A DNA stretch of 64,000 nucleotides from the human T2T-CHM13v2.0 reference genome, Homo sapiens. Positions within the stretch are counted from its first letter, which is position 1; each line of letters opens with the position of its first letter. The translations under genes were made by a program, and so were the position numbers. Under the pieces are notes generated by a model that was not told the origin of the DNA, ran no database searches, and worked only from the letters and a program-made list of their open reading frames with translations. The stretch spans positions 26,688,001-26,752,000 of the forward strand of contig CP068257.2 in NCBI GenBank assembly GCA_009914755.4. Reading direction: 5' to 3'. This document shows, piece by piece, positions 16,079 through 55,200 of the stretch.

Positions 16079-16380
16079 TTTTTTTTTTTTTTTTTTTGAG
16101 ACGGAGTCTCACTCTATCACCCAGACTGGAGTGTAGTGGCGCAATCTCAACTCACTGCAAACTCCGCCTCCCAGGTTCATGCCATTCTCCTGCCTCAGCC
16201 TCCTGAGTAGCTGGGACTGCAGGCGCCTGCCACCACTCTCAGCTAATTTTTTGTATTTTTTTGTAGAGATGGGGTTTTACCATGTTAGCCAGGATGGTTT
16301 TGACCTCCTGACCTCGTGATCCACCCGCCTTGGCCTCCCAAAGTGCTGGGATTACAGTCATGAGTCACCGCGCACGGCCA
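16079..16380 (-). mobile_element. Alu SINE, full length, minus orientation (poly-T = A-tail at the left end)
   Basis: 'tttttttttttttttttttgagacggagtctcactctatcacccagactggagtgtagtggcgcaatctcaactcactgcaa...ccaggatggttttgacctcctgacctcgtgatccacccgccttggcctcccaaagtgctgggattacagtcatgagtcaccgcgcacggcc' is the reverse complement of the Alu consensus. Confidence 0.9.
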
Positions 16381-22257: not shown

Positions 22258-22540
22258 GTCTTCTCTTCCTTTGCTTCCCTTTCCTTTTCCTCCCTTCCTT
22301 CCTCCCTCCCTCCCTTCCTTCCTCCCTCCACCCTTCCTCCTTCCTTTCTTTCTCCCTCCCTCCCTCCCTCCTCCTTCTTCCTTCCTTCCTCCCTCCCTTT
22401 TTCTTCTCCTTCTCCTTCTCTTCCTCCTCTTCTTCTTCCTCCTCCTCCTCTTCCTCTTCTTCTCCTTCCTTCCTTCCTCTGTCCTTTCTCTCTCTTTCTC
22501 TCACTCTTCCTTTTTTTCTTTCTTTGTCTGTCCCCCTGAC
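22258..22540. repeat. ~280-bp near-pure polypyrimidine (CT-rich) / polypurine tract built from (CCTTCC), (CTCC) and (CTT) units
   Basis: The plus strand is almost exclusively C/T over ~280 bp ('ccttcctccctccctcccttccttcctccctcc...cttcttcttcctcctcctcctcttcctcttcttctcc...'). The three overlapping 104-148 aa ORFs here are low-complexity artefacts. Confidence 0.9.
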
Positions 22541-25424: not shown

Positions 25425-28043
25425 TAGACAGAAGCCTTAGAAGTCATGCAACGTCACATCCACTGCATTCTATCCATCAAGCCAGCCGCAAATGCCACCA
25501 AAATGCAAGGGCATGAAAAATAGACTTTATGTCTTTATCAGAAGAGGCAGAATTCTGAAAAAGCATGTAGGCAATAGAATCTCTCATAATTGGTTTACTC
25601 GACATGCTGTCAGTATAGTTCCATGGAGGAATTTTGTTGTTGCTGTCCTTATTTTCTAAAGAGGTAAAGTTTTATCATGAAGAACAGAACTGATGAATGT
25701 GAAGGAAAGAAAGATAAAACAATTAATAAGCGTGTCCATATTTACATGTGTATTCAGGCTAAGTATGCGTTCCTTCAAAAGGCTCCTATTCACCGCTTGA
25801 AACTGCATGGGGAAATTGATTCATGGCTAAATATAAATAGCAGCTTCCATTTTAATATACAGTCTTCCTTGGGGTAACAGGAAATTGGCATGACTTCACA
25901 CATCAAATATTCTTTTTCCTCCCCTTCCTCCCTCTCCTCCCGCATCCCCTTCTCCTGCTTCTTCCTTTTTTCTCTTTTATAAAATAATTTTGCATTATCC
26001 TCCAAATAATAGTTATACCTCATCACACTCCGTGCCCACACTGTTTCTTCAGACTTTAGATTAAATCCAAAGACATAATGTAATGGCCAGTGATTGTCAA
26101 AGTGCAGAAAAGGTCTATCTAGGGAAGAATTCTCGATAGGAAGAAAATGTGGAACACTCTAATGGAAAGAGAGGAGAGTCAGACCTATTCTCACTCTCTT
26201 CCTTTTGGTGTGGACATATGGTAGGTGGACAGAGGGAACGATGCAAAACAAACACCAGCCCAGTGAGGAGGGAACTCAACGCTATTTGGGGAGCAGTTGT
26301 TGCTTTTTGTGGTATAGTTTAGAGAAATTTCAAGTAGTCATGTTTAGGTTTGGTTAGGAGAGATGACTAGATAGGTTATCTGGAGGGCTTTTCATGATCT
26401 TCACAGAATGAGTGGCACAGTAATTGGTGATATAAGATTCTATGTGCCCAGAATAAAGCACAGAAAACATGAGCAAGAAGAGGCCTCCAGGGGAGTCAGA
26501 GTTAAAAAGGCACAGTATTTAAAAATGTCACCACCAGTGGCAAATAGTTGAGTCCAAGGACTTCAGTAATGGGTATTGGAATGCTAACCACACAGCAGAT
26601 AGGGCCAGTCCTGCTTCACTAGTTGTGGGTTCAGGGACCAAACCAGAAAGTCCCTGCTTAGCAGAGACCAGCAAGATTCAGAAGACACCTCGTAGATCAG
26701 GGAACACTGCTATGGAGGTTCTCCCTTCCTGCACACATGTGGAGAGGAAGGGTGGAGGAGAAGAAAATCTAAACTCCTAAGCACTTGTACAAAGAAGACT
26801 GATACATCCAAAAGTATTATATAAACTGGAAGGGACTGTGATTCTATCAACTTCAGGTTGCAATTTAGGTTTTCCTGACCACTTATAAAGTACTGTTAAT
26901 GAGGATAATCAGATTGGTTGTAGTAAATTAAGAACAACAATATTTTGCCCATCTGAGTACATGCTCACCTAGCAAATGTGTGAGCCTTCCCCATTAGAGA
27001 ATCTTGAAAGCCTTATCATGAAAGAACAAATTTAGCTGACGTAAAAGAACAGAATGTCTTCCCTTAGGAAATGGAGGTCCAAGGTATTCAAATGGCCTGC
27101 TTACAAGTAGCAGAATAGAAATCAGCATTCAGGATGCCTGGCATCCCGTTCAGTTTTCCCTGCCACACCATGTCCCACATGCAGTCAGGTCTGCTTGTTC
27201 TCTAATGGAAAGTCAACGGAGGAATGAGTTCAGATGGGAAGGGAGAGACCAGATTAAAGGTGTGAAAGCCCAGAACACTAATTGGCAAACGTCAGTTAAT
27301 TTTTAAATATAATGTCTTCATCATTAAACACTTACTCTTCTCAAACCATGTGAAATCATTAAAGGATGTTACTGAGTCAACAGAAAAAAAGACAAGGTCC
27401 ATCTTGGATCATTTCACTGTTGGAGACTAAGCAGAAGTGAAAATCTCCTCTAACAAAATTAGCCACTCAAATCATCTAAATGAGCTCAACAATGTTATAC
27501 TAGATTACCTTTCAGAGTAATTAGACCACCCATGCCTGTCAATTTAAGGAGGCTACTTTCTGGAATGTGTTGAACTTGACATCATTCCCAAACTGGTAGA
27601 AAATGGAATAATGAGAATTACAGTTTTGATATCTTTTGTTTAGCCAAGTATGCTTTCTTCCACTAAGTGATCATAGCATTTCTTAATATTATAGATACTT
27701 CATTTTCTTTGTTCAACCCATTTTGTAACATGCTATGTTACTTTATTATTTTGAAAATTGTAGAATTGTGTCTATTCTTCTTAGGCATATTGGTCAAGCT
27801 GTAATTTTTTTTGGTTTAGCATAATTAGAAGTCTGGTATAAAAAAGTGTTTTAAAAACTATTACCTAAAAAAGAAAGTATGGGGCAGTGTAGCTTATGAG
27901 TAGGAAATTTCATTTGTTTGTGTGCACAAGTAAATATTTTCATGGTGAAGTCAGATGCATTTGCATGACCAAAGCTCTATTTGCATGTACAAATATGGGT
28001 TTCAAGTACCCAATACAATTAAATTACACAAACACATATGCTA

Positions 28044-28728
<685 letters not shown>

Positions 28729-30183
28729 TAAAATACTCATCCCTCTACCCTTGCAACTTATAGAAGTAAAAAACAATTTTTTAACTTGAAGAAATACTTT
28801 TAAAAGGCAAATATCCCACAAAATATTTACTTTAATTACAACACAAGCATAACACAGTTTTTAAGAAAGATTTTCAATTCCTCTAAGAAAGTTATATAGA
28901 AACCTATTAAACAGCTACAATTTTAGGTGCCAAACTCACCATGCTATTCCTAGAGAGAAGTAATAATTTTTTTGAAAGGTGGAGAAATTCTCGAAGGCCA
29001 TGGGAATCAATTTTAGGTGGACCCCCGCCAGGCCTGTGACTCTATCAACCCTTAAGATCCGCTACTTTGCTGGAAAACTCTTCCTATTTTCTCAAATGTG
29101 GCATTACAGGCAGTAACCATTATTGAATACTCAGAAAGGAAAGTAAATCTTCAAGTGGGAATATTTTTAAAATATGCCTAAAATGTGAATTTTAGAAAAA
29201 TAACTTTCCTCTCTTACAACTTTTCCTCATTAGTAGTATCTTTCCAAAGTTACCTTGTAAGTTAAATTAAGGTTTAAAAGTGCTTTTATAGTAACTTGAT
29301 CATGTTTTAAGAGGTTCAAAAACAATTATTTTATTAAGGCCTTGGAAATAGTTTAATAAATTCATGCCTAAAATTTTTTTAAATTTTTCTTTATTTTTTT
29401 CCTAATAACATTTTCTGGGCTAAAGGACTTCTCTCAAGTTCACATTCAATGATGTATATTGTTTGAATAAGTATATTCAGAAGTCTTCCAAAACAAGCAA
29501 TTGTGAAAATTTAGTAAGGCTTACTTGGGCCCAAAGTATGATTTTCTTCAGAGTAGTTTCTTATTCTTTTAGACTGTAAGCAATGGACATTATATGTATT
29601 TGCATTTATACTATATAAAAATGTATTTATACTATATATATAAAATATTCACTATAACATACATAAACACAAATATAATGAACATTTTATTTATATGTAG
29701 TATAAATTCACTATCACTATATGTATTATACATACAGTAGTATAAATTCATTGATATCATTCTCTATGAAATACTAAAAATTCTATTCAGCACATCAGGC
29801 TCATTCACCAAAAAAATGATTTTGTCATCATGAATTTCATAGCATTCACTCTGTACTAGGAGAGAGAGAGGGGTTGGAAGTCATGGGACTTCCTTTTAGG
29901 ACACTGAAACCTAGTTGTGAAGAAACATGCACAAAATGATCTATTACTTCCAAAATGTTATATCAAGATCTTAAATTGTACATCCCAACAAATGTAAATA
30001 AGTGATCCGATGTGAACGGCACTTGAAAGGGTTGATGTGGAGTTCACTGTCATTGTCAGAGTAGCACAGACTGGCAGAAGAAGACTTCAGGTGTTTAGAT
30101 AGAAGGAATGATCTCAGCAAAGGAAGAGAGGAGATTAGAACTCCTCAGCAGAAGCCAAAAAGCAGTCAGAAGTTGCTATAAGC

Positions 30184-30296
30184 TCCCACTTATAAGGCAG
30201 AACATGTGGTATTTCGTTTGCTGTTCCTGTGTTAGTTTGCTAAGGACAATGGCCTCTAGCTCCATCCATGTCCCTGCAAAGGACATGATTTTACAC
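30184..30296 (-). mobile_element. Second L1 insertion, inverted 5' segment: antisense of the ORF2 C-terminal codons
   Basis: 'tcccacttataaggcagaacatgtggtatttcgtttgctgttcctgtgttagtttgctaaggacaatggcctctagctccatccatgtccctgcaaaggacatgatttt' is antisense L1. The minus-strand ORF 30176-30379 contains 'IMSFAGTWMELEAIVLSKLTQEQQTKYHMFCLISGS', which is the L1 ORF2p C-terminus '...FMSFVGTWMKLETIILSKLSQ...HMFSLIGG'. Confidence 0.8.
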
Positions 30297-30509
30297 AAGA
30301 ACACATAGAGGGGAAGAACACACACTGGGGCCTTTCTGAGGGTGAAGAGTGGGAGGAGGGAGAGGATCAGGACAAACAACTAATGGGTGCTAGGCTTAAT
30401 ACCTGGGCAATGAAATAATCGGTACAACAAATGCCCATGACCAGCTTTACCTATGTAACAAAGCTACGCTGGTACCCCTGAACTTAAAATAAAAGTAAAA
30501 AAAAAAAAA
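30297..30509 (+). mobile_element. Second L1 insertion, direct 3' segment (3'UTR plus A-tail); older L1PA-like
   Basis: 'acaagaacacatagaggggaagaacacacactggggcctttctgagggtgaagagtgggaggagggagaggatcaggacaaacaactaatgggtgctaggcttaatacctgggcaatgaaataatcggtacaacaaatgcccatgaccagctttacctatgtaacaaagctacgctggtacccctgaacttaaaataaaagtaaaaaaaaaaaaaa' matches the L1 3'UTR, which begins immediately after the ORF2 stop. Flanking direct repeats are 'agaagttgctataagc' (30168-30183) and 'agaacttgccataagc' (30510-30525), about 14 of 16 identical. Confidence 0.85.
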
Positions 30510-31664
30510 AGAACTTGCCATAAGCGTGTTAAAAGAGGAATAGAAATTGAGAATATGTAATACAAAAGAAAAATAGAGTCATGCCTACTGACCACATTCT
30601 GGGAGCCATCACACAAGCCAGCTCTGTTGGATTGATTAATTTTATGTAGCCACAGTGTGGCTAGAACCTTATCATGCATCTTATTATTCTTTTCACATAA
30701 CCTCACGCATATCTCACCATTGAGGACAACGGTGAGAACCAGTCTTGTCTTCATTCTAGAATTAGAGTAATAGGGACAACAAAAACAACAACAAAGTCAT
30801 GGAACATCTAACTGTCCTTCTATCTAAATGTCAACAAACAACTCTGATGTGTCATCCCCACCCCGCTTTACAGTGAATGTTGTCCCAATTATAGTTATGA
30901 TCTTTGTATTCTGGAAAATGCCAAAGGCTGATGCGCATAAAAGAAGAGGTCCATTCCAAAGAAGGCCAGGGAAAAAGGTATCGAGAGATGAGGAGAGCCT
31001 GGAAGATAAACCTTTTGGCCCAAATATAGCTTCCCATTCAAAGAAAGAATTCTACAGCGGTCAACGCTTCCATCTCCAAGACCTATTATGAGCACATTTA
31101 ACTTCTGGCCAGATTCCCAGCATTTCTGCTGTTCTTTGACTTTTCTACTGGTCCACAATGATGGAAATTCACACACAAAAGGATATGTAGAGTAAGAGTG
31201 CACAAATATGGGCATCTTCTATTCACCCATTGAAAGACAGGGTCCATTTCTGAAGGCATGCTTGCTATTTCCACCAAATAAAAGGAGTAGGAAACATAAA
31301 AGGTCTATTAGATCATCTTGTCAACTCTTTTTCTTAGTTTCGTCAACAGTCCAGGATGCTGTCAAATGAAACTCCTCACTTTAGGGCATCTCCAAGGATA
31401 AAGGCAAGGCACGCCTCTGGAATTTACATAGATTCCCAGTCTGCCAACCAGCTACAACAAGGTTCTATGATTCATGATTAGAAATGATGAAAGAAAGTAA
31501 CACTGTTTATCATCACATACCACCTCCCTGTGTTTCTTTCTCCCAGAATTAATAAATGCAATGACACTGAATTCACAAAAATATTGTATTTTTAAGCTTT
31601 CATATGCAATGATTCCTTTCATTGCTATTAATAAACAAGAGGACTCCTCCAGCTGAACTCTTTC

Positions 31665-31665
<1 letters not shown>

Positions 31666-31708
<43 letters not shown>
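31666..31708. repeat. (TG)n microsatellite, ~21 units
   Basis: Uninterrupted 'tgtgtgtg...' run. Confidence 0.95.
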
Positions 31709-31712
<4 letters not shown>

Positions 31713-32751
31713 ATCTGACAAGTTTGCTGTACTGTGCTAATGAGCCCTAACGGTTTTAACATAAGTCCTGCAGGGCTGGACTACTTGAGGCTTATTCCAT
31801 CATTGAAAAAAAATGCTCAAGCTTATGGCCATACTAGACGTTCAGATAGCTTGAAGTGAAATACAGTCTGTCAATCTGTTCAGTGTCATACCTATAATCA
31901 GAATGCTGGGAATGTGCACAAGTCCTTGTGCTTTTTCTTATGAATTGGAAGACTTTTCTTTCTTAAATAAAAGGAAACAGATCATGCAGCATGTTGAGTA
32001 GAAACAGGCTGGTGCATAACAGGAGAAGAAAATCCAATGGAATAGCCACACACAGATTGCCTTTACTTCTAGGTTGGCAGGCAATGTAAGATTTGGAATT
32101 AACACCAGAAAGGAATTTCTCCCATCTCTTTCCATGGAGCTGGCTCACTGATGTTCAAGCCATGTTAATAGTCTCAGACTGCTGGCTCTGGAAAATGCTA
32201 AAGGTATCAAAAGGCACTCAGAGATTTACCAGTGAATCCAAAATATAAAAGCATTTATCCAAGTGCACCCAGTTTCCCAGTCTTCATTAATAATCAGGTA
32301 ATTGAAAGTGTTCTCATCTCTAATGCCTAATGCAGTGAATTATGTGCAGTCTTGCCACCACATCTATGAGGCACGTTAAAGCCCATGGTGGGTTCTCAAC
32401 CCTGGCGGCATGCTAATGTCACCCAGAGAGCTCTCACCAAATACCTACATCCAGGGCCCATCCCCAGAGATTCTGGCTTAATTGGCCTGAAGTAGAGCCA
32501 AGCCTTGGTATTTTGTATTGCTCCCCAGGAGATTCTAGTGTGCAGCCAAGATTGAAAGACTAAAATGAACAGGCTGAATCTGAAATGAATTATAGATACA
32601 TTATAATAACATGTAACTCTTTATTAGAAGACTCAGAACTTTCTAGAAAAAAATTCCTCTGACTCCTCAAGACTGCTCTCACTACTTCACTTAATGTCTC
32701 CTGTGTATCTCAGAGATCAGGAGTTACTTGGCATAAAATGTGTGTGAGAGG

Positions 32752-36890: not shown

Positions 36891-37239
36891 TATTTTTGTA
36901 TGTTAAAACAATCGTGCATCTCAGAGAGCAATCCCACTTGGTCATGGTGTATAATCCTTTTAATGTGCTGTTGAATTCAGTTTGCTGGTACTTTGTTAAA
37001 AATTTTTACATCTTCAGGGATATTGACCTGTAGTTTTCTTTTTTTGTAGTATATTTGTCTGGATTTGGTATCAGGGTAATGTTGAGATCTCGTAAAAAAA
37101 CTTTTCCAGTTTTTTTAAAGAGTCTGAGAAAGGTTGATGTTAATTCTTCCTTATGTGTTTGGTAGAATTTACCAGTGAAGCCATCTGGTGCTGGGCTTTT
37201 CTTTATTAAGAAGTTTCTGGACAATGATCCAATCGTATA

Positions 37240-37860
37240 TAAATATATATAGATATAGATAGACATAATTTATAAATAATATAATTTATATTATATTATA
37301 TATAATTATATATTTATATATCATATATTATATATCATTTATATATCATTTAAGTATATCATCTATATATAATATATGATATATATCATTTATATAATAT
37401 ATCATAGAAATATATATATCATTATATAAATATATATAATTTATATAATGATATATAATAACGTTATATTTATATAATGATATATATTTATATATAAATA
37501 TATATAATGATATATACATATATAACATCTAATACATTAATATATTATATATCATTGATATGTCATTAATATATCAGATGATACATCATTAATATATCAT
37601 TAATATATTAGATATTGATATATCACTATATTAGATATCATTGTTGATATATCACTATAATATAGTAATATATTAGATATTATTTGTATTATATACAATA
37701 TATAAAAATATATTACATAAAATTAATATATTAAAATTACATAAAATACATTATATATAGCATACATAACAAAATATATGCTATATATTATATAGTATAT
37801 TTATGTATATTTATTTATACTGATATATGTGTATATATATTGGTATGTGTACATATATAT
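37240..37860. repeat. ~620-bp AT-rich minisatellite-like tract (degenerate 'atatatcatt' / 'tgatatatcacta' / 'ttaatatatcat' units) embedded in L1 #1
   Basis: Direct reading. Almost no G or C over ~600 bp, with many overlapping short repeats. The all-Y/I/L ORFs at 37346-37528 are artefacts. Confidence 0.8.
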
Positions 37861-39100
37861 ATGTATAGGTACGTTCTTTGGGATCAGTTGAGACACGTCT
37901 TCTTTCATTTCTGATTTTACTTATTTAACTATTCTATCTTCTTTTTTAGTCTAGCTAAAGGTTGTCAATTTTGTCTGTCTTTAAAATATACCAACACTTA
38001 GGTTTGCTGACTTTTTGTATTGTTTTCTATTATCTATTGTGCTTATTTCTCTTCTAAACTGTACAATATCCTTTCTTCTGCTAACTTTAGGCTTAGGTTG
38101 CTCTTCATTTTACTTTTTCACCTATTTTACTCCTTTGAGGTGTAAGGTTAGGTTATTTATTGAAGATCTTTCTTCGTTTTTAATGTAGGCATTTATTACC
38201 ATAAACCTCCTTCTTAGAACTGCTTTTGCTGCATCTTAGAAATGTTTAGTATGTTGTATTTTTATTTTTGTTTGTCTCAAAATATTTTCTAACTTCCCTT
38301 TTGATTTTTTTCTTTTACCCATTGGTTGTTGAGAAGTAAGTGTTTTTAAATTTCCATATATTTGTGAATTTTCCAGTGTTTCTTCTGCTCTTGACTTCTA
38401 GTTTCATTTCATTGTGGTCATAAAAGATACTTAGTATAATTTCAATCTTCTTAAATTTGTTAGCATTCATTTTGTGACCTAGCCCGTGCTCAATCCTAAA
38501 GAAATATTCATGTACACATGAGAAGACTTTCTATTCTGCTTCTCTTGGGTTGGATGTTCTACATATATCTGTTAAGTCCATTTAGTCTATAGTGTTATTC
38601 AAGTCCTCTGTTTACTTATTGATATTCTGTCTGGATGTCTGTCCATTATTGAAAGTGTGGCACTGAAGTCTCCTACTATTATTGCATAGCTATTTCTACC
38701 CTCAGCTTTGTCATAAATATACAAAGCTCATCTGCTGTATATATTTAGATGCTCTAATGTTGGAGGTGTATGTACTTATAATCATTGTATCTTCCTGGGA
38801 AATTGATTGTTTTATCATTACAAAACATCTTTTTTATGTTTAGTGAAAGTTTTTGACTTAAAAATCTATTTTGCCTGATGCAAGTGTATCCACCTTTGTT
38901 GTATTTTGGTTGCCACTTCAACCAAATTTGCCACATCAAATATCTTTTTCCATCCCTTCACTTGTAGCTATATGTGTCCTTAAATCTAATGTCAGTTTCA
39001 TGTGGATACAGTATAGTTGGATGACTTTTTAGTCCATTCAGCCACTCTAAGCCTTTTGATTGGGACATTTAATCATTTAAACTTTAAAAGTTTAAATTAA

Positions 39101-39517
<417 letters not shown>

Positions 39518-39746
39518 CTCTTTTTGTCTCTTGCTCCTTTCATTTGTGTTTCATTGATTTTTTTTTATTGATATGCCTTTATTTCTTATTTTTATCTTGT
39601 GCTATAGGCATTTTATTGTGGTTACCATGGGACCTACATAAAATATCTTACAGTTTTAACAGTATTTTTTTAAAAAAATAACAATTTAACTTCAAGCATA
39701 TGCAAAAACTTTTTTCTTTCCCCACACTCAGTTATTGATTTCCTAA

Positions 39747-40192
<446 letters not shown>

Positions 40193-40739
40193 CTATACAT
40201 TGATCTTTACAAGTAAGTTTCATACTCTTTATGCCATTCTGTTACTGGTTAGTATCCTTCCCTTTTGACTTGAAGAACTCCCATTAGCATTTCTTGAGAG
40301 GCAAATTGAATGGTGATGAGCTTCCTCAGTTTTTGTTAGTCTGGAAAAATTCTTATTCTTCTTTATTTTTGAAGGACATTTTTACCAGCTATGGTATATT
40401 TGGTTCATAGTCATTCATTTGTTTGTTTCTTTTAGCACTTTCAATAAATTGTCCTACTCCCATCTAACTTGCAAAGTTTCTGCTGAGAAAATTACCTTAT
40501 AGTCTTGAGGAGGTTCGCTTATATGAGACAAGACATTTTTCTCTTGCTACTTTCAAAATTCTCTTTGGCTTTCGACAATTTGATTACAAAGTGGCTACGT
40601 ATAGATTTCTTTGGGTTTATTCTTTTGGGCTTGGGTTGAGGAGGCAGATTTCTGGTCTATATATTCATTTCCTAACCCAGATTTGGCAAATTTTTAGCAT
40701 TAACTTTTAAAATATGCTTTCAGTATTCTTTTTTCCTCC

Positions 40740-41020
40740 TTCTAAGATCCCCATTTTATATATATATATACACACACACATATATATATACACATATATA
40801 CACATATATATACACATATATACACATATATATACACATATATACACACATATATACATATATACACATATATATACATATATACACATATATACACATA
40901 TATATATACATATATACACATATATCCATATATGTGTATATATGTATATATATATCCATATATATGTGTGTGTATATATATGTGTATATATATCCATATA
41001 TATGTGTGTGTGTATATATA

Positions 41021-41100
<80 letters not shown>
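40740..41100. repeat. ~360-bp (CACATATATA)n / (TATATACA)n-type microsatellite block ending in pure (TA)n; inside L1 #1
   Basis: Direct reading: 'tatatatatatacacacacacatatatatatacacatatatacacatatatatacacatatatacacatatatatacacatatatacacacatatatacatatatacacatat...tatatatatatatatatatat'. The six overlapping Y/I/C/H-rich ORFs at 40707-41183 are artefacts of this repeat. Confidence 0.9.
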
Positions 41101-41105
<5 letters not shown>

Positions 41106-43530
41106 ACTTGGTGGTGTCCCATAAGTTCCTTAATCTTTCTTCACTCTTGTTTTCTTCGGTTTTCTTTCTGCTTCTATGACTGAATAATTTTTATAACCAG
41201 GCTCTGACTTTACTAACGCTCTCTTCTATTTGATCTAGTCTACAGTTGAACTTCATTAGTAAATTGTTCAGTTCAGTTATTATATTCTTTAGTCCCATGA
41301 TTTCTGTTTGGTACGTTTTTAATATTTCCTGTCTCTTTGTTGAAATTCTCACATTGTTTATGCATTATTCTCCACACCTCAGTGAGAAATTTTAAGATGC
41401 TTATTTTGCATTATTTGCTAGATAAATTATATAACTCCATTTAATTCAGGTAGGTTTCTAGAGATTTGTCTTCCTTCTTTGACTGGAACATCATTGCCTA
41501 GTTCTCTATTTCTCTTTCCTCTCTGTGTTGCTGTCTAAATATTACATAAAATAGTCACTTCTTCCACTCTTCAAAGACTAGCCTTGTCTAGGAGAAGTTC
41601 TCACTAATCAGCCTGGCCAGAGATTCTGAAGACCTCTCGAACTGTAAGTTTTCTCAACCCACTTTCTTTATTATACTCACCCCCCAACCACCACAGGCAT
41701 CTAGAATATGCCAGATGCCATCAATACTCCAAGACAAGAAAAATAAAACCAGTTCTTCAGGAAGTCCCTGAAAAGGTTGGATTATTGGGTGCTCTAAGTC
41801 AACTCTTTCAATCCCCAAAGAGGAGCTGGGAGCTGGGATTTTTATCTGCTCACTCTGATCTGTGCAGTCAGGTGAGCAGCTGTAGTGACTAGTTGTGTGC
41901 TAAAAACCCTATGCCTGCTTTGCTCATGTTCTTATCAACTATCCTTCATCACAAAGATACATTAATGGTACTGTAGGTGTCAGTTTACATGACTGGTTTT
42001 TTTTTTCCTTCTTAGTTGTCAATTTTTGTGAGTATATAGCAGGTATATATATTTATGGGGTACATGAGATATTTTGATATAGGAATACATGCTTAATAAC
42101 CACATCAAGACAAGTGATATTCATCACCCCAAACATTTATCCTTTGTGTTATAAATAATCCAGCTATACACTTTTAGTTATTTTAAAATAGAAAATTAAA
42201 TTATTATTGCCTTTAGTCACCCTCTTGCACTATGAAATACAAGGTCTTATTTATACTTCCTAACTATTTTTTGTACCCATTAACCATACCTACTTTTATT
42301 CCATCACCAATCACTACCCTTCCCAGCCACTGGTAACCATCCTTCCACTCTCTATACCCATGAGTACAATTCTTTTAATTTCTAGCTCCCATAAATACAT
42401 GAGAACACGCAAAATTTGACTTTCTGTGCCTGGCTTATTTCACTTGACGTAATGACTTCCAAGTCATTATGTTAATGACATGTGCCATTCATGCTGCTGC
42501 AAATGACAGGATCTTATTTGTTTTAATAGCTGAATAGTACTCCTTTGTATATATGTACCACATTTTCCTTATTTATTCATCTGCTGAGGGACACTTAGTT
42601 TGCTTCCAAATCATGGTTACTGTGAATAGTGCTATAATAAACATGGGAGTGCAGATATCTATTCAATCTGTTAATTTCATTTCTTTTGGATATATACCTA
42701 GCTGTGGGATTGTGGGATCATACAGTAGCTCTATTTTTACTTTTTTGAGGAAACTTCAAACCGTTCCAGTAGTGGTTGTACTAATTTACATTCCCACTAA
42801 CTATGTACAAGGTCTCCACCTTCTTACTAGCATTTGTTTCTGCCCATTTTTTTTTTTTTTTGGATAAAAGCCATTTTTACTGGATGAGATGATATCTCAC
42901 TGTAGTTTTGAGATTTGCATTTCTCTGATGATCAATGATGTTGAGCACCTTTTCATTCACCTGATTTTTATTTGTACATATTCTTTTGTAAATGCCTATT
43001 CAGATCTTTTGTCCATATTTTAATCAGATTATTAATTTTTTCCTATAGAGTTGTTTGAGCTATTTATGTATTCTGGTAACTAACAATTGGACAGATGGAT
43101 AGTTTACAGATATTTTCTACCATGCGATGGGGTTATCTCTTCACTTTATTGACTGTATCTATTGCTGTGGAGAAGCTTTTTAATTTGATGTTATGCCATT
43201 TGTCTATTTTTGCTTTGCAAACTGTTTGTGGGGCATTACTCAAAATCTTTACTTAGCGCAATGTCCTGGAGAGTTTCTCAAATGTTTTCTTGTAGTCGTT
43301 TCATAGATTGAGGTCTGAAATTTAAGTGTTTAATCCATTTTGATTTGATTTTTTTATATGGCAAGAGATAGAGGTCTAGTTTCATTCTTCTGCATATGGA
43401 TATCCAGATTTCCCAGCACCATTTATTGATGAGACATTTATTTTTCCATTGTATGTTCTTGGTGTCTTTTTTTAAAATGAGTTTGTTTTGGGTTCTCTAT
43501 TCTGTTCTATTTGTCTACGTGTCTGTCTTT

Positions 43531-43843
43531 GTTTATTCGTTTGTTTGTTTGTCTGTTTTTGGAGACAGAGTCTTGCTCTGTTACCCAGCCTAGAGTGCAA
43601 TGGCAAAATCTCAACTAGCTGCAAACTCTGCATCCAAAGTTCAAGCAATTCTTGTGCCTCAGCCTTACAAGTAGCTGGGTTTACAGGCATGTGCCACCAA
43701 ACCTGGCTAATTTTTGTATTTTAGTAGAGACGGGGTTTCACCACGTCGGCCAGACTGGTCTCGAACTGTTGGCCTCAAGTGATCCACCAGCCCTGGGCTC
43801 CCAAATTCTTGGGATAACAGTAGGCATGAGCCACTGCACTGGG
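43531..43843 (-). mobile_element. Alu SINE (diverged, older), minus orientation, with a (CAAA)n-type tail (reads (tttg)n on the plus strand); nested in L1 #2
   Basis: 'tttgtttgtttgtctgtttttggagacagagtcttgctctgttacccagcctagagtgcaatggcaaaatctcaactagctgcaaactctgcatccaaagttcaagcaattcttgtgcctcagccttacaagtagctgggtttacaggcatgtgccaccaaacctggctaatttttgtattttagtagagacggggtttcaccacgtcggccagactggtctcgaac...gcatgagccactgcactggg'. TSD 'tctacgtgtctgtctt' (43514-43529) / 'tctatgtgtctgtctt' (43844-43859). Confidence 0.85.
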
Positions 43844-46149
43844 TCTATGTGTCTGTCTTCATGCCAATATTAATGCTGTTTTGGTCACTATAACTCTAAT
43901 ATTATTTGATGTCAGGTAATAGGATTCCTCTAGTTTTGTTCTGCCTGCTCAGAATAGCTTTGGCTATTCTGAGTCTTTTGTGGTTCCATATAAATTTTAG
44001 GATTATTTTTTCTATTTCTGTGAAGAATGTCATTGGTATTTTGAAAGGGATTGCATTGAATCTGTAGATTGCTTTGGGTAATATGGACTTTCTAACAATA
44101 TTGATTCTTGAAATTCATGAACATAGAATATCTTTCCATTTTTGTGTGTTACTTTTTTATTTCTTTTTCAGATTAATCACTTTTGGCATATAAAAATACT
44201 ACTAATATCTGTATATTGATGTTGTATCCCATGATTTACTGAATTTATTAGTTCTCATCATTTTTTATTTGCTGCAGTCTTTATTTTTTCCAAATATAAG
44301 ATTATATATGCATATAAGGATAATTTGACTCCTTCCTTTCCAATTTGGACGCTCATTATTTCTTTATCTTGTCTGATTGCTCTAGCTAGAACTTCCAGTA
44401 CTATGCTGAATAACAGCAGTGAAACTGGGCATCCTTGTCATGTTCTCAATCTTAGAGAAAAGGTTTTCAGTTTTTCCCCATTCAGTATGATACTAGCTGT
44501 GGATCTGTCATATATGGCTTTTATTATGTTGAGATATGTCCTTTCTATACTGTTTTTTTAGGGTTTTTATTATGAAGGGATGTTGAATTATATCAAATGC
44601 TTCTCCAGCATTAGTTGAAATTATCATATTGTTTTTGTCTTATTCTGTTGATATATCAAATTGGTTGATTTGCATATATTGGACCATCCTTGCACCTCTG
44701 AGATAAATCCCACTTGGCCATGATAAATCATCTTTTTGATGTGTTATTGAGTTCAGTTTGCTAGTGTTTTGTGAAGCATTTGTGAATCAAGATTCATCAG
44801 GGATATTGGCCTGTAGTTTTGTTTTTTTTTTTAAATGGGTCTGTCTGGTTTTGGTATCAAAGTAATTCTGGGCTCATAAAATGAGTTTGAAAATATTCCC
44901 TCTTCTTCTGTTATTCTAAATAGTTTGAGTAGTATTGGTATTCTTTAAATGTTAGGTAAAATTCAGCAATGAAGTCATTATATCTCAGGCTTGTCTTTCC
45001 TGGGAGATGTTTTATTATCATTTTGATCTCATCACTTATTATTGGTCTGTTCAGATTGTAAATTTCTTCACGGTTCAATGTTGGTAGACTGTATGTGTCT
45101 AAAAATTTATCCATTCCTTCTAGATATTCCAATTTATGGGTATATAGTGCTCAAAGCAGCCTCTAATAATCCTTTAAATTTCTGTACTATTGGTTGTAAT
45201 GTCTCCTTTTTCATCTCTAATTTTATTTGGGTCTTCTCTCTTTATCTTAGTCTGGCTAAAGGTTTGTCAATTTTGTTTAACTTTTCAGAAAACCAACTTT
45301 GATTCATTTTATTAATCTTTTGTATTGTTTTCTTCATTTCTTCATTTTAATTTCATTTATTTATGTTCTGATCTTTACTGTTTCTTTTCTACTACTAATG
45401 TTGGGTTTGGTCAGCTATGGCTTTTCTAGCTTTTTAAGATGCATAATTAGGATGTTTAAAGTTTTTCTGCTTTTTTATGTAGGCCCTTATAGCTATAAAC
45501 TTTCCTCTTAGTATTGCTTTAACTGCATACCATAGGTTTTAGCATGCTGTGTTTCAATTATTGTTTGTTTGTAAAAATGTTTCAATTTCCTCCTTAATTT
45601 CTTCACTGAACCACAGGTCATTCGGGAGCATAATGTTTAATTTCCACGTATTTGTATAGTTTCTAAAATTCCTCTTGTTATTGATTTACTATTTTTATTA
45701 TTTATTACTTTTTATTTCATTTGGTCAGAGAAGGTATTTGATTTTTTTTTAATTTTTAAAGACTTAATTTTTTTGGCCTAATATATAGTCTATCATTGAA
45801 AATGCTCCATGTGCCAAGGAGAAGAATGTGCATTCTGCAGCTGTTGGATGATATTTTCTGTAAATATTTATTAGGTCCATTTGGTCTGCAGTGTGGATTA
45901 AGTGCAAATTTCTTTGTTGATTTTCAGTCTCGATGATCTGTGCAATGTGAAAGTTGAGTGTTGAAGTCTTTAGCTATTATTATGTTAAGGTTGATCACTC
46001 TCTTTAGCTCTGACAATACTTGCTTCATATATCTAGGTGTTCCTGTGTTGGCTGCATATACATTTACAATTATTGTATCCTCTTGGTAATTTTATCCTGT
46101 TGTCATTATATAATGGTCTTCTTTGTATTTTTTTACAGTTTTTGTCTTA

Positions 46150-46250
46150 AAATCTATTTTATCTGATATAAAATAGATTTATATCTGATAAATTTATATC
46201 TATTTTATCTGATATAAAAAATCTATTTTATCTGATATAAAATTATATCT
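46150..46250. repeat. Local tandem triplication of a ~20-45-bp L1-derived unit ('ctattttatctgatataaaa')
   Basis: 'ctattttatctgatataaaa' occurs at 46154, 46200 and 46223. The parental L1 sequence ('aaagtctattttgtctgatataagtatagc') carries it once. Confidence 0.8.
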
Positions 46251-46393
46251 GACTTGCTCTTTCGTAGTTCCCATTGGCATGGAATATATTTTTCCATCTC
46301 TTTATTTTCAGTCTACTTGTGTCTTTACAGGTGAAGTGCATTTCTTCTAGACTATAGATCATTGGGTCTTGTTTTCTTTTTTCTTTTCTGTTC

Positions 46394-46679
46394 TTTTTTT
46401 TTAAGACAGAGTCTCCCTCTGTCACCTCAGCTGGAGTGCACAGCATGATCTCAGCTCACTGCAACCTCCACCTCCTGAGCTCTAAGCAATTCTCCTGCCT
46501 CAGCCTCCAGAGTAGCTGGGACTAAAGGCACCCCCACGCCTGGCTAATTTTGTATTTTTAGTAGAGACGGGGTTTCATCATGTTGGCCAGGGTGGTCTCA
46601 AACTCCTGACCTCAGGAAATCCACATGCCTCGGCCTCCCAAAGTACAGGGACTACATGCGTGAGCCACAACACCTGGGC
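46394..46679 (-). mobile_element. Alu SINE, minus orientation; nested in L1 #2
   Basis: 'ttttttttaagacagagtctccctctgtcacctcagctggagtgcacagcatgatctcagctcactgcaacctccacctcctgagctctaagcaattctcctgcctcagcctccagagtagctgggactaaaggcaccc...cccaaagtacagggactacatgcgtgagccacaacacctgggc'. TSD 'gggtcttgttttctt' (46366-46380) / 'gggcttgttttctt' (46677-46690). Confidence 0.85.
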
Positions 46680-47171
46680 TTGTTTTCTTATCCATGAGTC
46701 TATGTCTTTTAATTGAAGAGTTTAGTTCATTTATATTTAATGTTATTCTTGATAAGTAAAGTCTTACTCCTGTAAGACTTCTTTTGTTTTGTTTTGTTGT
46801 TGATTTTCTGGGTGTTTTTTTGTGTGTTCTCTTCTTTCTGATTTTTCTTCCTGTTTTCCTTTTAGTAGAAGTGATTTTCTCCAGCAGACTATTTTAATTT
46901 CTTGTTCATTATTTTTTGTTCATCTGTTGTGTGTTATTTGATTTGCAGTTACCATAGAGCTTGCAAATAAAATTGTATAACTTATTATTTTAAACTGATA
47001 ACAGCTTAACACTGATGGCATAAATCAACAAATGAAATAACAAACAAGCAAAATACTAATGAAAATTCTATAAATTTAACTTCATCCTCCTACTTTTTTG
47101 TGATGGATATTTATGATGGGTTTTATCATATAATTTCTATATTTTTATTAAAATTTTAATTTCCATGATTA

Positions 47172-50100
47172 GTTTTTTTATTAAGATTTTTTTAAATTTC
47201 AATAGCTTTTGGGGTACAAGTGGTTTTCATTACATGGATGAAATTTTTAGTGGTGAATTCTGAGATTGTAGTTCACCCATCACCAAGTAGGGTAGACTGT
47301 AGCTAATGTGAAGTTATTTATCCCTATTACCCCTCTTAGTCTCTAAAATCCATCATATCACTCTGTATGCCTCTGCATGCTCATAGCTTACTTCCCACTT
47401 ATAAGTGAGAAAATACAATATTTTGGTTTCTACTCCTGTGTTACTTCATTTAGAATAATGGCCTCCAGCTCCATTGAAGTTGCTGCAAAAGACATTATTT
47501 CATTTCTTTTAATGGCTGAGTGGTAGTTCATGTGTGTATATAACACATTTTTTTATCCACTCATTAGTCAATGGGCACTTAACTTGGTTCCACATCTTTG
47601 TAATTGTGAATTGTGCTGCATTTGCAAATGTCTTTTTCATATAATGACTTCTTTTCCTTTGAGTAGATACTCAGTAGTGGGATTGCTGGATTGAATGGTA
47701 GATCTACTTATAGCTCTTTAAGGAATCTCCATGCTGTTTTCCATAAAGGTTGTACTAATTTACACTCCCACCAGCAGTTTGTAAGTATTCGCTTTTTCCC
47801 ACATCCATGGCAACATCCATTGCTTTTTGACTGTTTAATAATCGCCTTACTTGCAGGAATAAGGTGGTATCTCACTGTAGTTTTAATTTGCATTTCCCTA
47901 ATGATTAGTGATGTTGAGCTTTTTTTTCATATGTTTGTTGGTAATTTGTGTATCTTCTTTCAAGAAATGTCTATTCATTTCCTATGCTCACTTTTCAAAG
48001 GAATTATTTGATTTTTTTCTTGGTGTTTGAGTTCCTTACAGATTCTGGATACTAGTTCTTTGTCAGATGCATAGATTGCAAATATTTTCTCGTATTCTGT
48101 GGGTTATCTGTTTACTCTGGTGAGTATTTCTTCTGCTGTGCAGAAGATTTTTCATTTAATTATCTCTCATTTATTTCTTTTTGTTTTTGTTGCATTTACT
48201 TTGGGGGGTTTAGTCATGAATTCTTTACCTAGGCTGACATCTAAAATAGTTTTTCTAACATTGTCTTCTAGAAATTTTATGGTTTCAAACCTTACATTTA
48301 AGTCTTTGATCCATCTTAAATTTTTTTATATGGTGAGAAATAAGGATACAGTTTTATTCTTCTATGTGTGGCTTGCCAGTTATCCCAGCACCATTTATTA
48401 AATGGAGCGTCCCTTCTCCAATTTGTGTTTTCATATGCTTTGTCAGAGATCAATTGGTTGTATGTATTTGGCTTTATTTCTCCATTATCTATTCTGTTCC
48501 ATTGTTCTATGACTCTATTTTTATACCAGTACCATTCTGTTTTGGTAACTATAGCCTTGTAATACAACTTGAAGTCAGATAATGTGATGCCTCCAGATTT
48601 GTACTTATTGCTTTTGATTGTTTTGGTTATTCTGGCTCTTTTTTCATTTCATATAAATTTTAGGATTTTCTAATTCTGTGGCTACTAATGTTGGTATTTT
48701 GATGGGAATTGCATTAAATCTGTAAATTGCTTTGGGTAGTATGGCCATTTTCACAACACTGTTTCTTCCAATCCATGAGCATGGAATGCCATTCCATCTG
48801 TTTGTGCCATCTGTGATTTCTTTCAGTATTTTTTTTTAGCTCTCTTCTTAGAGATCTTTCACCTGTTTGGCTATTTCTAGGTATTTTATACTCTCTACAG
48901 CTGTAGTAAAATTTATTGAGTTCTTGATTTTATTCCCAGCTGGGTTGTTGTTGATATATAGCAGTGTTACTAATTTGTGTACGTTGATTGTGTAACCTGA
49001 GACTTTATTAAATTTGTTTTTCAAATCTAAGAATCTTTTGGAGGAGTCTTTAGAATTTTCTAGATGTACTACACTCATATCGTCTATAAATGGCAGTAGT
49101 TTGACTTTCTCTTTTTCAATTTGGATGCCCCATATTTTTTTCTTGTTTAATTGCTCTTTTTAGTACTTCCAGAACTATGTTGAATAGAAATGGTAAAAGT
49201 GGGTATTTTTGTCTTTTCTGGTCTCAGAGACCAGAATTTCTCAGAGAAAATGCTTTCAACTTTTCCCATTCAGTATGATGTTGACTGTGGGTTTGTCATA
49301 TATGGATTTTATTATTTTAAGATAGGTTCTTTCTATGTCTAGTTTGTCGAGAGTTTTTTTTTTTCATAAAGGAGAGCTAAAATTTGTCAGTCACTTCTGC
49401 ATCCATTGAGATGATCATATGGTTTTTGTTTTTAATTCTGATGATGTGATGTATCACATTTTTTAACTTGCATATATTAAACCACCTCTGCATCCCTTGG
49501 ACATAACCCACTAGATGATTTTGAATTATCTTTTTGATGTACTGCTGGATTCAGTTAGCTAATATTTTGTTGAGGTTGTTTGCCTCTATGTTCACCACAG
49601 AAATTGGTCTGTAGTTTTCTTTATTTTATTTTTTGTGTCATTCCTGGTTTTAGTAACAGAGTGACATTAGCTTCATAAAATGGTTTAGGGATGATGTCTT
49701 CTTTCTCAATCTTTTGGAATAGTTTCAGTAGGATTGCTACTAATTCTTTAAATGTCTGGTAGAATTCACCTGTGAATTTATCTGGTCCTGGGCTTTTATT
49801 AATCGGCAATTTTTAAATTACTGGCTCAAGCTTGCTGCCTCTTATTGATCTGTTCAAAGTTTCTGTTTATTCCTGATTTAATCTGAGAGGGTTGTATATT
49901 TCCAGGAATTTGTCCATTTACTCTAGGTTTTCTAGTTTGTATGAAAAAAGGTGTTCCATAGTGGTCTCAAATGATCTTTTGTATTTCTGTGGTGTTGATT
50001 GTAATGTCTCCAGTTTCACTTCCAATTGAGTTTATTTGGATCTTCTCTGTTCTTTTCATTGTTAATTTAGCTAATTGTCTATCACATTTGTTTATTTTTT

Positions 50101-51552: not shown

Positions 51553-52273
<721 letters not shown>

Positions 52274-55200
52274 TTAGAATTTACAGGAACTATTCAAGCA
52301 GGTAAGAACAAGTTGGATATCATCCACAGCAACCTGATCACTGAAGCAATGCCCTAAACTTCTACAGATTCATGAAAACTAATAGATCACAGATAGGGAG
52401 GGAGTAGCAGCAGAATTCAGAGAGCTTGTTGAGACAGATGCAGGGGGAAAGAATTTTAGGGAATAGAATTTGAAAGAGGAAAAAAGTAAACAAAAAATGA
52501 GAAAAAATATTTTGGAAAAACAATACGTAAGAGATACAGCACAAGTTAGTAGAAGAGCTGATCAAGATAGCTTTATTGCCCCTGGAAAACATCTGAAACC
52601 ACAAAAAAAAAGGAGCAGAGAAATATATTTTTTAAATTGTGACATTATCCAAGACTGGATCTTGAGTGAAGAGCAGTAAAATATTAAGGAGGCTGCTTTA
52701 TGTTGTAGAAAATACATAGATTTTGGAAGCAAATATACCTGTGTTTGAATATTGACCTGGAAGACTTTGAATCTTGAAACTCTTTGAGCTTCATCGTTCT
52801 TTCTGTGTAAATTAGAGAGGACTATACTTAGGTCACACAATTATTTTGAAAAGTTCAATGAATACAAACACATAAAATTCAAAGCATGACGCAGGACACA
52901 TAGTTGTCATTCAATAAATGTTACCTCCCTTCAAGGATATAGGTGCTATTATTAACCATAAATTACAGATAAAGAAACTATTTATAACATACAGTGCTTG
53001 TTCATTCAACTGATACTTACTGAGCCTCTGCTATGTGGCAACGTATGGTTGAATTGCAAGGCAAATGATCCTACACAATCTTCTGGCAAGGAAAGGCAAA
53101 TAATAAACAAAAAAGTAAATACAGATATCATATAAAGATGAGTGCAATTCAGAAAAAAAACAGCATGGTTTTATAAAGGTATCTGGGTGGCTAGCTTAGG
53201 TTAGGTTGTCAAAATGCTTCACCAAAGAGGTAGGAAGAAGGAATCAGGCAGCCATGTGAAGATTAAGATGAGGGCTATTCCAGGAAAGGTCAACAGCCAG
53301 AGTAAAGGACTTAGGAAGAGTATGACACAACTGGCACATCCAAGGAACCCAAGGCATGTTTAGTCCAGCCAAGGGTTTTCAGTGGGTGAGGGGAAGAGTG
53401 GTACCAGGGAAGTCAGAGTGGCCAGATCACATAGGGCTTGGTAAGCCAGACAAAGTAGCATGGGTGTTAGTCCACATGAAATTGGGCAGCATTGGAGTGC
53501 TGTAAGCAGGCCACTAAAATAATCTGATTTTGTATTTTTCAAAGATCCCTCTGACTACTGGGTGAAGAAAAGACTGCTAAGGGCTAAAAGCCAAAGGAGG
53601 ACACACATCAGGAGGTCATTGTGTTCATGTTTAGAGGAGAAACAAGGACTACTTAAGCAAAAGAAGTAGGGCTGCAGAGGAGCAGGGGAAGACACATCTT
53701 TGGGGTATGCTTAACAGAACCTGCCACCATATTAGATGTGTGGGAAAGATAAGTATCAAGGGTAACACTTGGATTATTGTTGGGTACAAGTGACTGCAGG
53801 GGTGCCAATTGACCAGATCAGAAAGCAGAAAGTTGGGGGGCAGAGAGGAGAGGACAAATGGGTGGAGAGAAGATGCTAGATACGCAGTTGGATGAATATA
53901 CCTTGAAAAGTTTTGAGGAGATTCAGAAACAGCAATTTAGAACAAATTTCAAACCATAGGATGGAATGAGAACTCTGAGGGAGAGTATACAAAACTGGGA
54001 GAGAAGAAATCCCAGCATTCCCCCAGGGCATGTCACCCTTTCAAGATCACACAAAAAAGGAATAGGAAACTGTGAAAGAGGAGAAGAATAGATAAGTAAA
54101 GCAGAAGGAAATTCAGAAAAGTGTAGAATCAGGCAAGCCAGGAGAGGAAGATGTTTCAACAAAGGGGCCATTCTATTCAGTGCTGAGATAATAAAGTATC
54201 TATAATAATTCAAAAGGTGAGTCCATTGAATTTGAAAGCATAGAAGTTATGGATGACCTTGATAAGAAGAATTTTTGTGAAAGGATGAGAACTGGAGGCC
54301 AAATAAGATTTTGTATCATTTTCCTACATAGCAACATAGCCTAGGCATGCCCCCCCCATATTAAATGTCAGCAAAGGAATGACTTAAAATACTGTATTTA
54401 TTTTCTTTATACAATTATGTTTAAATGTTTTTCATGCATAATTTTGTTTAATCAAAAATGTTTATATTCTACTTTAAATCTTTTTCTTTTCCTTATTTTT
54501 TCTACCTTTCATTCAATATCAGCTCTCCTCTGCCACAAGGTAGTCCACATTGCAATGCAGTAGTGATCTTCAATATTTTCCCTGTGCCTAGTCTTATTTA
54601 TGTACATAGATGCATACTTGTATACAGATATATAGGGCCTGGATTTTTGTCCATATATTGTTTTACCTAAATTGAATCATACCATAAATACTTTCTGAAT
54701 CTTGCTTTCCACTCACCTATATCTCACAGAAACCCTGAGTCAACTGGTATAGCTTAAATCCATTCTTTTTTAACGGTTGGGTTATATTCTAGATGTGAGT
54801 TTGCTATAGTTAAACTTCCCTCTATAGACTAGCATTTACTTTGTTTTCAATCAAACACATGATGATTAATGGTGCCAAACTACATCAAAACTTTATTAGC
54901 ATTATAATTCCCTTTATTTGAATGTTTATGTCTTTAGCACATTTTTATTTTTATTTTAAAAAATGCCTGTGAATATTCACACATAAATCTTTCACATATC
55001 TCTAATTCTTTTCTTAGGATAGATGCTTAGATATAAAGATGAAAGGCTTGGGTATAAAAAACATTTTAAGAAATCTTGACAATGGTGCTAAATATCTTTC
55101 TAGAAAAGTAGAAATTTGTATTCTTACAGAAGATGAGAGTGTTAAGACCACTGTTCCACGCCGTCAGAACTCATCTGAGCATTATCTGAAGCAACTATGC

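What the first reader, a model, noticed from the sequence alone, without database searches (positions are those of the whole stretch)
30168..30525. Textbook twin-priming L1 insertion: inverted and direct segments are adjacent in L1 coordinates, with an intact ~16-bp TSD
The insertion is ~325 bp. Its left ~113 bp (30184-30296) is the antisense of the last ORF2 codons. The right ~213 bp (30297-30509) is the sense 3'UTR, starting right after the ORF2 stop and ending in an A-tail. The two segments therefore abut in the source L1 (roughly nt 5815-5935 inverted, then 5945-polyA direct). This is the exact signature of twin priming, in which a second priming site on the top strand inverts the 5' part. 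Imperfect direct repeats 'agaagttgctataagc' / 'agaacttgccataagc' bracket the whole unit, so it is a single insertion event and not two elements.
Basis: partly seen in the sequence, partly recalled or inferred. Interest (0 to 1): 0.5.

Follow-up and report, generated by a model that had tools for sequence, protein, structure and literature searches.

The report
Ordinary twin-primed old L1 fragment
This is a short, ancient LINE-1 retrotransposon insertion whose front part was copied in backwards during insertion ("twin priming"), which happens in about one in five L1 insertions, so it is real but ordinary.

Summary
Window 30184-30289 is the antisense of the last ~35 codons of L1 ORF2; it matches human ORF2p residues 1240-1274 of 1275 (E 3e-9). 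Window 30293-30496 is the sense 3'UTR, followed by a 13-nt A-tail at 30497-30509.

I built a same-type consensus from 32 independent L1 copies found in metagenome contigs. On it, the inverted part covers positions 163 down to 58 and the direct part covers 178-384. The two parts therefore lie 11-14 nt apart in L1, and the ORF2 stop codon falls inside the lost stretch. The 3'-most L1 base of the inverted part sits against the left target-site duplication, which is the layout twin priming predicts.

The 16-nt direct repeats at 30168-30183 and 30510-30525 match at 14 of 16 positions (empirical P about 0.002). They bracket the whole unit. The two parts are about equally diverged from the consensus (8.5% and 11.2%).

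- The junction is at 30290-30293, not 30296/30297.
- The direct part starts 8 nt after the stop codon.
- The element is an old L1 type, not a young L1PA. An empty site is therefore unlikely in apes or Old World monkeys.

No ortholog or empty site could be retrieved. This kind of insertion is already known, so interest is low.

The parts
30168..30183 (+). Left (5') target-site duplication, AGAAGTTGCTATAAGC. The inferred first-strand nick is on the bottom strand between 30167 and 30168 (bottom strand 5'-CTTCT/GA-3'). The last 3 nt (AGC, 30181-30183) also match L1 consensus positions 164-166 (GCT) in antisense, which is possible microhomology for the internal priming.
   Evidence: Sequence read. 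14/16 match to 30510-30525 with empirical P about 0.002. Top direct repeat D1. Local alignment to the consensus runs through 30181-30183.
30184..30289 (-). Inverted L1 fragment: the antisense of the last ~35 codons of ORF2 (consensus positions 163 down to 58). The 3'-most L1 base lies next to the left TSD. It has no stop codon, 3'UTR or T-run of its own.
   Evidence: Translation. ORF2p residues 1240-1274 of 1275, E 3e-9. Alignment to the in-window L1 copies and to the 32-copy consensus, 9 mismatches in 106.
30290..30293 (.). Inversion junction, 'ttta'. These 4 nt can be read as a continuation of the inverted fragment (consensus 57-54, 2 of 4 matching). Alternatively, the a at 30293 can be read as the first base of the direct fragment (consensus 178). 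Microhomology at the junction is at most about 1 nt.
   Evidence: Base-by-base comparison with the consensus alignment.
30293..30496 (+). Direct L1 fragment: the sense 3'UTR, consensus positions 178-384. It starts 8 nt after the ORF2 stop codon (TAA = consensus 167-169).
   Evidence: Alignment to the 32-copy consensus, 23 mismatches in 206 plus one 1-nt gap. End-to-end alignment with the 3'UTR of the in-window copy 28498-28712.
30497..30509 (+). A-tail of 13 A. A 14th A at 30510 is counted as the first base of the right TSD.
   Evidence: Sequence read; alignment.
30510..30525 (+). Right (3') target-site duplication, AGAACTTGCCATAAGC.

Best explanation
This is a single, ancient LINE-1 retrotransposition event that went through twin priming.

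Inferred steps:
1. L1 endonuclease nicked the bottom strand opposite 30167/30168 (5'-CTTCT/GA-3').
2. The L1 RNA's A-tail was primed there, and the first cDNA was made over the 3'UTR back to consensus position 178.
3. Before that cDNA got further, the top strand was cut 16 nt downstream.
4. The freed top-strand 3' end (...ATAAGC-3') paired through AGC with GCU just before the ORF2 stop codon of the same RNA.
5. That end primed a second cDNA running about 106-110 nt into the end of ORF2.
6. Joining the two cDNA ends gave this layout: TSD, inverted ORF2 end, direct 3'UTR, A13, TSD. 11-14 nt of L1, including the stop codon, were lost between the two priming tracks.

What is shown: the identity, orientation and L1 coordinates of both fragments, the A-tail, the duplications, and the equal divergence. 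What is inferred: the order of the molecular steps, which follows the published model.

The insert is now an inert fossil about 9-11% diverged from its family consensus. That suggests an age of tens of millions of years. This age is an inference from typical primate neutral rates, not something measured here.
For: - ORF2p homology of the inverted part: residues 1240-1274 of 1275, E 3e-9.
- Both parts map to one contiguous L1 3' end. In an in-window reference copy the inverted part ends at 28486, and the direct part begins at 28498 (alignment) or 28502 (my ungapped reading). In a consensus of 32 independent copies they map to 163->58 and 178-384.
- In one search, every one of the 35 other copies that matched both parts has them collinear on one strand. 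Only L054 is inverted, and it is this same locus.
- TSD 14/16, P about 0.002 with generous slack, and it is the top direct repeat.
- The inverted part has no 3'UTR or T-run of its own, and the left flank has no antisense 3'UTR continuation (best local score 8). It therefore cannot be a separate poly(A)-primed insertion.
- Divergences of 9/106 and 23/206 do not differ (Fisher P 0.56).
- 46% of 5'-inverted L1 insertions have the two cDNA ends within 20 bp of each other (PMC12016303).
Against: - No empty orthologous site was recovered, so 'one event' rests on the TSDs and the geometry alone.
- The inferred nick site CTTCT/GA is only a loose match to TTTT/A. It is a pyrimidine run followed by purines, but 4 of 6 at best.
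- The 3-nt microhomology at the internal priming point is short enough to arise by chance (about 1 in 64).
- The junction shows essentially no microhomology.
- The reference consensus was built from copies chosen because they share a 22-mer with this element. That slightly biases the divergence of the direct part downwards.
Confidence: 0.9

Rival explanations
1. A conventional 5'-truncated L1 insertion (about 330 bp, collinear) was rearranged afterwards. A small genomic inversion flipped its 5' part and also lost 11-14 nt.
For: The end product would look nearly the same. Nothing in the single sequence formally separates inversion during insertion from inversion afterwards.
Against: One inversion breakpoint would have to fall exactly at the TSD/L1 boundary (30183/30184) without disturbing the TSD, and a separate 11-14 nt deletion would be needed at that same boundary. 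Twin priming predicts both features directly. 5' inversions arise in 18-22% of new L1 insertions (PMC12016303). By my own reckoning, not measured here, 100-bp inversions with such breakpoints are rare.
Confidence: 0.04
2. The two cDNAs came from two different L1 RNA molecules at one cleaved target ('dual priming', or a template switch between RNAs), rather than from one RNA primed twice.
For: Dual priming has been proposed as an alternative that sequence alone cannot always exclude (PMC2837659). The two fragments share no overlapping sequence that would prove a single template.
Against: With two independent RNAs there is no reason for the second priming point to fall within 11-14 nt of where the first cDNA ends. 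On a roughly 6-kb RNA the chance of landing that close is about 0.5% (my estimate). As proposed, dual priming uses the A-tail of the second RNA, and no T-run is present at the left end. Both fragments fit the same consensus with similar divergence.
Confidence: 0.03
3. Two unrelated L1 insertions happen to lie next to each other: an older antisense fragment, and a later sense 3' end that landed beside it.
For: L1 fragments are frequent in this window, so neighbouring fragments are common.
Against: The antisense fragment lacks a 3'UTR and A-tail, and its flank shows no continuation of L1. No direct repeat brackets the sense fragment alone, and the only significant repeat pair brackets both fragments. 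Adjacent L1 coordinates, equal divergence and the exact twin-priming geometry would all have to be coincidence.
Confidence: 0.02

Closest known systems
Twin-primed (5'-inverted) LINE-1 insertions, inversion-with-deletion class (Ostertag & Kazazian 2001, as described in PMC2837659 and PMC12016303)
   Same: - TSDs bracket two oppositely oriented fragments of one L1.
- The polyA-primed fragment is direct and the internally primed fragment is inverted.
- The start of the inverted cDNA and the end of the direct cDNA lie within 20 bp in L1 coordinates, with a small internal deletion.
- There is a single 3' A-tail.
   Different: Nothing differs in kind. The insert is at the short end of the range: direct cDNA about 204 nt plus tail, inverted about 106-110 nt. 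Reported medians are 253-571 bp and 292-751 bp (PMC12016303). It is also an old fixed copy rather than a recent or polymorphic one.
Ordinary 5'-truncated L1 3'-end insertions, such as the sense copy at window 28150-28730
   Same: Same source sequence (ORF2 end, 3'UTR, A-tail), same target-primed reverse transcription, and TSDs.
   Different: Those copies are collinear throughout. Here the part upstream of the stop codon is on the opposite strand.
Twin-priming variants with a 5' poly(T) stretch, and 'dual priming' (PMC2837659)
   Same: Both target strands are used as primers at one cleaved site.
   Different: Those variants leave a T-run at the 5' end and little or no direct L1 fragment. Here there is no T-run, and there is a clear 204-nt direct fragment.

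Membership tests
Twin-primed L1 insertion | Both fragments derive from L1 | tested here: met
   The inverted part matches ORF2p residues 1240-1274 (E 3e-9). Both parts align to in-window L1 copies and to a 32-copy consensus.
Twin-primed L1 insertion | The 5' fragment is inverted; the 3' fragment is direct and ends in an A-tail | tested here: met
   30184-30289 is antisense, 30293-30496 is sense, and the A13 tail is at 30497-30509.
Twin-primed L1 insertion | Geometry: the 3'-most L1 coordinate of the inverted fragment abuts the 5' TSD and lies close to the 5'-most coordinate of the direct fragment (a small deletion or duplication) | tested here: met
   Consensus position 163 (166 if the shared AGC is counted) is at 30184 next to the TSD. 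The direct fragment starts at consensus 178. The gap is 11-14 nt.
Twin-primed L1 insertion | One pair of target-site duplications brackets the whole unit | tested here: met
   14/16 match with empirical P about 0.002; top direct repeat; no repeat pair around either fragment alone.
Twin-primed L1 insertion | L1 endonuclease-type nick site (5'-TTTT/A-3'-like) at the first-strand priming end | tested here: inconclusive
   The bottom strand reads 5'-CTTCT/GA-3' at 30167/30168: pyrimidine run then purines, but not a canonical site. A more canonical TTTTT/GG lies 11 nt upstream (30156/30157), but using it would require 6 nt to have been lost from the right repeat.
Twin-primed L1 insertion | Complementarity between the top-strand 3' end and the L1 RNA at the internal priming point | tested here: inconclusive
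   3 nt (AGC, 30181-30183) match consensus 164-166 in antisense. This is compatible with the model but short enough to be chance.
Twin-primed L1 insertion | Both fragments are of the same age and source | tested here: met
   8.5% versus 11.2% divergence from one consensus, Fisher P 0.56. The TSD copies differ at 2/16.
Twin-primed L1 insertion | The empty orthologous site holds a single copy of the TSD and neither fragment | not testable with these tools
   The only other copy of the locus found (L054) is the same species, 99.94% identical, and filled. No vertebrate genome collection is available.
   Against the in-window young L1PA-like copy (28380-28712), BLAST aligned only parts of the insert: 26 nt of the ORF2 end (96%) and 86 nt of the 3'UTR at 72%. 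A full-length alignment needs long gaps. Against the consensus of older copies the insert is 89-91.5% identical. From memory that consensus resembles L1PB, late L1PA or L1MA1-type 3' ends. No repeat library was available to name the subfamily.

The most novel reading that the evidence does not exclude
The internal priming point sits exactly at the ORF2 stop codon, and the first cDNA stopped only about 204 nt into the RNA. This could mark a preferred internal priming or pausing hotspot at the ORF2/3'UTR boundary of this old L1 family, for instance one set by RNA structure or by ORF2p still bound in cis near its stop codon. PMC12016303 reports peaks in breakpoint positions. A single locus cannot show this.
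Probability: 0.05. Interest if true: 0.25.

Novelty: already known. Interest (0 to 1): 0.07.

Why it matters
It matters little beyond correct annotation. Repeat-masking software would list this insert as two adjacent L1 fragments on opposite strands, and recognising it as one event avoids counting two insertions. 5' inversions are found in about one in five new L1 insertions (PMC12016303), so one more old example adds no new biology.

Tried and rejected
- Pfam scan of the 38-aa translation: no family, even at E<=10. The fragment is too short, and the PDB sequence search gave the ORF2p match instead.
- Scan of the bacterial and archaeal genome collection for the L1 3'-end 22-mer, hoping for host contamination: 0 hits. 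The metagenome scan gave 75 loci and was used instead.
- The old antisense L1 at 47190-47620 as a reference. Its ORF2 end aligns at 75%, but its 3'UTR is too different to place the direct fragment (score 28).
- Looking for an ortholog or empty site among the fetched loci. Only L054 matches the flanks, and it is the same filled locus at 99.94% identity.
- A longer, 27-nt TSD starting at the A-run at 30157 (D1). Rejected because GCAGTC would have to be replaced by A's in the right copy.
- Rfam scan of the window: no family.
- Hairpin potential of the insert: no inverted repeat between the two fragments. This is expected, because they come from non-overlapping L1 regions.
- The original twin-priming paper (PMC311219) is not held. 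Its model is cited through PMC2837659 and PMC12016303.
- The expensive protein-database searches were not used, because the answer did not depend on them.

Full report
**What is there**

The region reads as follows:
- left flank ...GCAGTC
- AGAAGTTGCTATAAGC (30168-30183)
- TCCCACTTATAAGGCAGAACATG...GGACATGAT (30184-30289)
- TTTA (30290-30293)
- CACAAGAACACATAGAGGGG...CTTAAAATAAAAGT (30294-30496)
- A13 (30497-30509)
- AGAACTTGCCATAAGC (30510-30525)
- GTGTTAAAAG..., the right flank

**The left fragment is antisense ORF2**

The reverse complement of 30184-30298 has one open frame: LCKIMSFAGTWMELEAIVLSKLTQEQQTKYHMFCLISG. The other two frames contain stops. [quoted passage not shown] Pfam gave nothing for so short a piece.

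**The right fragment is the sense 3'UTR**

Two other L1 3' ends lie in the window:
- A young L1PA-like sense copy lies at about 28150-28730. Its ORF2 stop (tga) is at 28489-28491, and a 3'UTR and A-rich tail follow.
- An old antisense copy lies around 47190-47620.

Against the young copy, the inverted fragment read as sense ends at 28486. The direct fragment aligns from 28498 to the A-tail in the alignment, or from 28502 in my ungapped reading of it. The two fragments therefore map to neighbouring positions of one continuous L1 3' end.

**A closer reference**

A 22-mer from the very 3' end (CCCCTGAACTTAAAATAAAAGT) was absent from the bacterial genome collection. It occurred in 75 metagenome contigs, which I take to be host DNA (one is labelled a human oral metagenome).

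49 of these contigs have at least 420 nt upstream of the motif. 36 of those matched both fragments. In 35 the two fragments are collinear on one strand. The only inverted one, L054, is this same locus.

A majority consensus of 32 copies (407 nt) contains ...CTTATAAGTGGGAGC TAA ATGATGAGAACACATGGACACATAGAGGGG.... The stop codon is at consensus 167-169.

Local alignments place the fragments as follows:
- Window 30181-30289 is the antisense of consensus 166-58.
- Window 30293-30496 is consensus 178-384, followed by the A-tail.

The three bases AGC at 30181-30183 belong to the left direct repeat and also match L1. The L1 sequence lost between the fragments is therefore 11 nt (167-177) to 14 nt (164-177). 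It includes the stop codon.

The junction bases 30290-30293 (ttta) can be read two ways:
- They may be a poorly matching continuation of the inverted fragment (consensus 57-54, 2 of 4).
- Alternatively, the a at 30293 may be the first base of the direct fragment.

Junction microhomology is thus at most about 1 nt.

**Geometry**

In the published model (PMC2837659), the top-strand 3' end primes internally on the L1 RNA. The inverted cDNA then starts next to the 5' TSD at its 3'-most L1 coordinate, and that coordinate lies close to where the polyA-primed cDNA stopped.

This is what is seen. Consensus 163/166 abuts the left repeat, and consensus 178 is the 5' end of the direct fragment.

The 3-nt match (target ...AAGC-3' against RNA GGGAGCUAAA) fits microhomology-assisted priming, but it is too short to weigh much.

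**Target-site duplication**

The two 16-mers match at 14/16. I sampled 20,000 random position pairs in this window at the same spacing, allowing +-6 nt of slack on each side (169 offset combinations). Only 0.2% reached 14/16. The repeat finder independently lists the pair as the longest direct repeat of the region (D1) and finds no repeat pair that brackets either fragment alone.

The inferred first-strand nick is on the bottom strand, 5'-CTTCT/GA-3'. This is a pyrimidine run followed by purines, but only a loose version of TTTT/A.

**One event or two**

Several results argue for a single event:
- The inverted fragment has no 3'UTR or T-run of its own.
- The left flank shows no antisense continuation of L1 (best local score 8).
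- Both flanks are single-copy in the window and in the fetched loci.
- Divergence from the consensus is 9/106 (8.5%) for the inverted fragment and 23/206 (11.2%) for the direct one. These do not differ (Fisher P 0.56). The 32 reference copies average 12%.
- The TSD copies differ at 2/16.

Two independent insertions, a later inversion, or two template RNAs would each need coincidences that twin priming does not. None of these can be formally excluded without an empty or intermediate orthologous site.

**Age and family**

BLAST aligned only parts of the insert to the in-window young L1PA-like copy: 26 nt of the ORF2 end at 96% and 86 nt of the 3'UTR at 72%. A full-length alignment needs long gaps. 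Against the consensus of older copies the insert is 89-91.5% identical.

From memory, that consensus resembles L1PB, late L1PA or L1MA1-type 3' ends. No repeat library was available to test this. About 9-11% divergence implies an age of tens of millions of years; this is an inference from typical primate neutral rates.

**Same-locus contig**

L054 (JGI24756J20136_100083, 4885 nt) matches window 27864-32746 at 99.94% and carries the insert. It is the same species and adds no comparative information.

**How ordinary is it**

Long-read surveys find 5' inversions in 18.4% of germline and 21.9% of somatic L1 insertions. In 46% of those, the two cDNA ends lie within 20 bp of each other in L1 coordinates. 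Median direct and inverted cDNA lengths are 253-571 bp and 292-751 bp (PMC12016303).

This insert (about 204 nt plus tail, and 106-110 nt) is short but inside the known range. Rfam finds nothing in the window. The two arms do not overlap in L1 and cannot form a hairpin.

**Verdict**

This kind of insertion is already known, so interest is low.

Noticed in passing
window 28150-28730: A younger L1PA-like sense fragment with at least two internal deletions. ORF2-region sequence at about 28160-28346 joins abruptly at about 28346/28347 to the ORF2 end (tggcacatatacaccatggaatac...). About 15 nt are also missing at 28459/28460 relative to the older consensus. It ends in an interrupted A-rich tail (28690-28735). 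It was used here only as an in-window reference.
   Followed up: partly
window 47190-47620 (minus strand), probably extending further right: A much older antisense L1 3' end with a different 3'UTR type. Its ORF2 end is 75% identical to the inverted fragment. It lies within the long T-rich stretch 38000-50000 (AT skew -0.16 to -0.32), which may hold antisense L1 or other A-rich repeats.
   Followed up: partly
L054 (JGI24756J20136_100083), whole contig = window 27864-32746: A 4885-nt contig filed as metagenome sequence is 99.94% identical to this window (1 mismatch, 1 gap). It is host-genome contamination in a public metagenome assembly. Most of the other 74 loci from the same scan also carry old L1 3' ends.
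   Followed up: partly
window 16158-16380, 39270-39527, 39975-40181: Three stretches of about 200-260 nt match several metagenome (host) contigs at 82-86% identity (L025, L026, L059, L063). They are probably copies of a common short interspersed repeat; I suspect Alu but did not test this.
   Followed up: no
window 40757-41103, 37236-37719, 22287-22478: Long simple repeats: (TA)n of about 347 nt at 40757-41103, a degenerate AT-rich array at 37236-37719 (local GC 26%), and a (TTCC)n-like tract at 22287-22478.
   Followed up: no
window 52001-54000: A strongly purine-skewed 2-kb block (GC skew +0.22, AT skew +0.225). I did not examine it.
   Followed up: no
window 30175-30198: The target sequence CTATAAGC at the end of the left repeat resembles the palindromic CTTATAAG of L1 that lies 8 nt further into the insert. 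This gives a local near-repeat, ctataagc/tcccac/ttataagg. It is probably coincidence, but it could have helped the top-strand end pair with the RNA.
   Followed up: no
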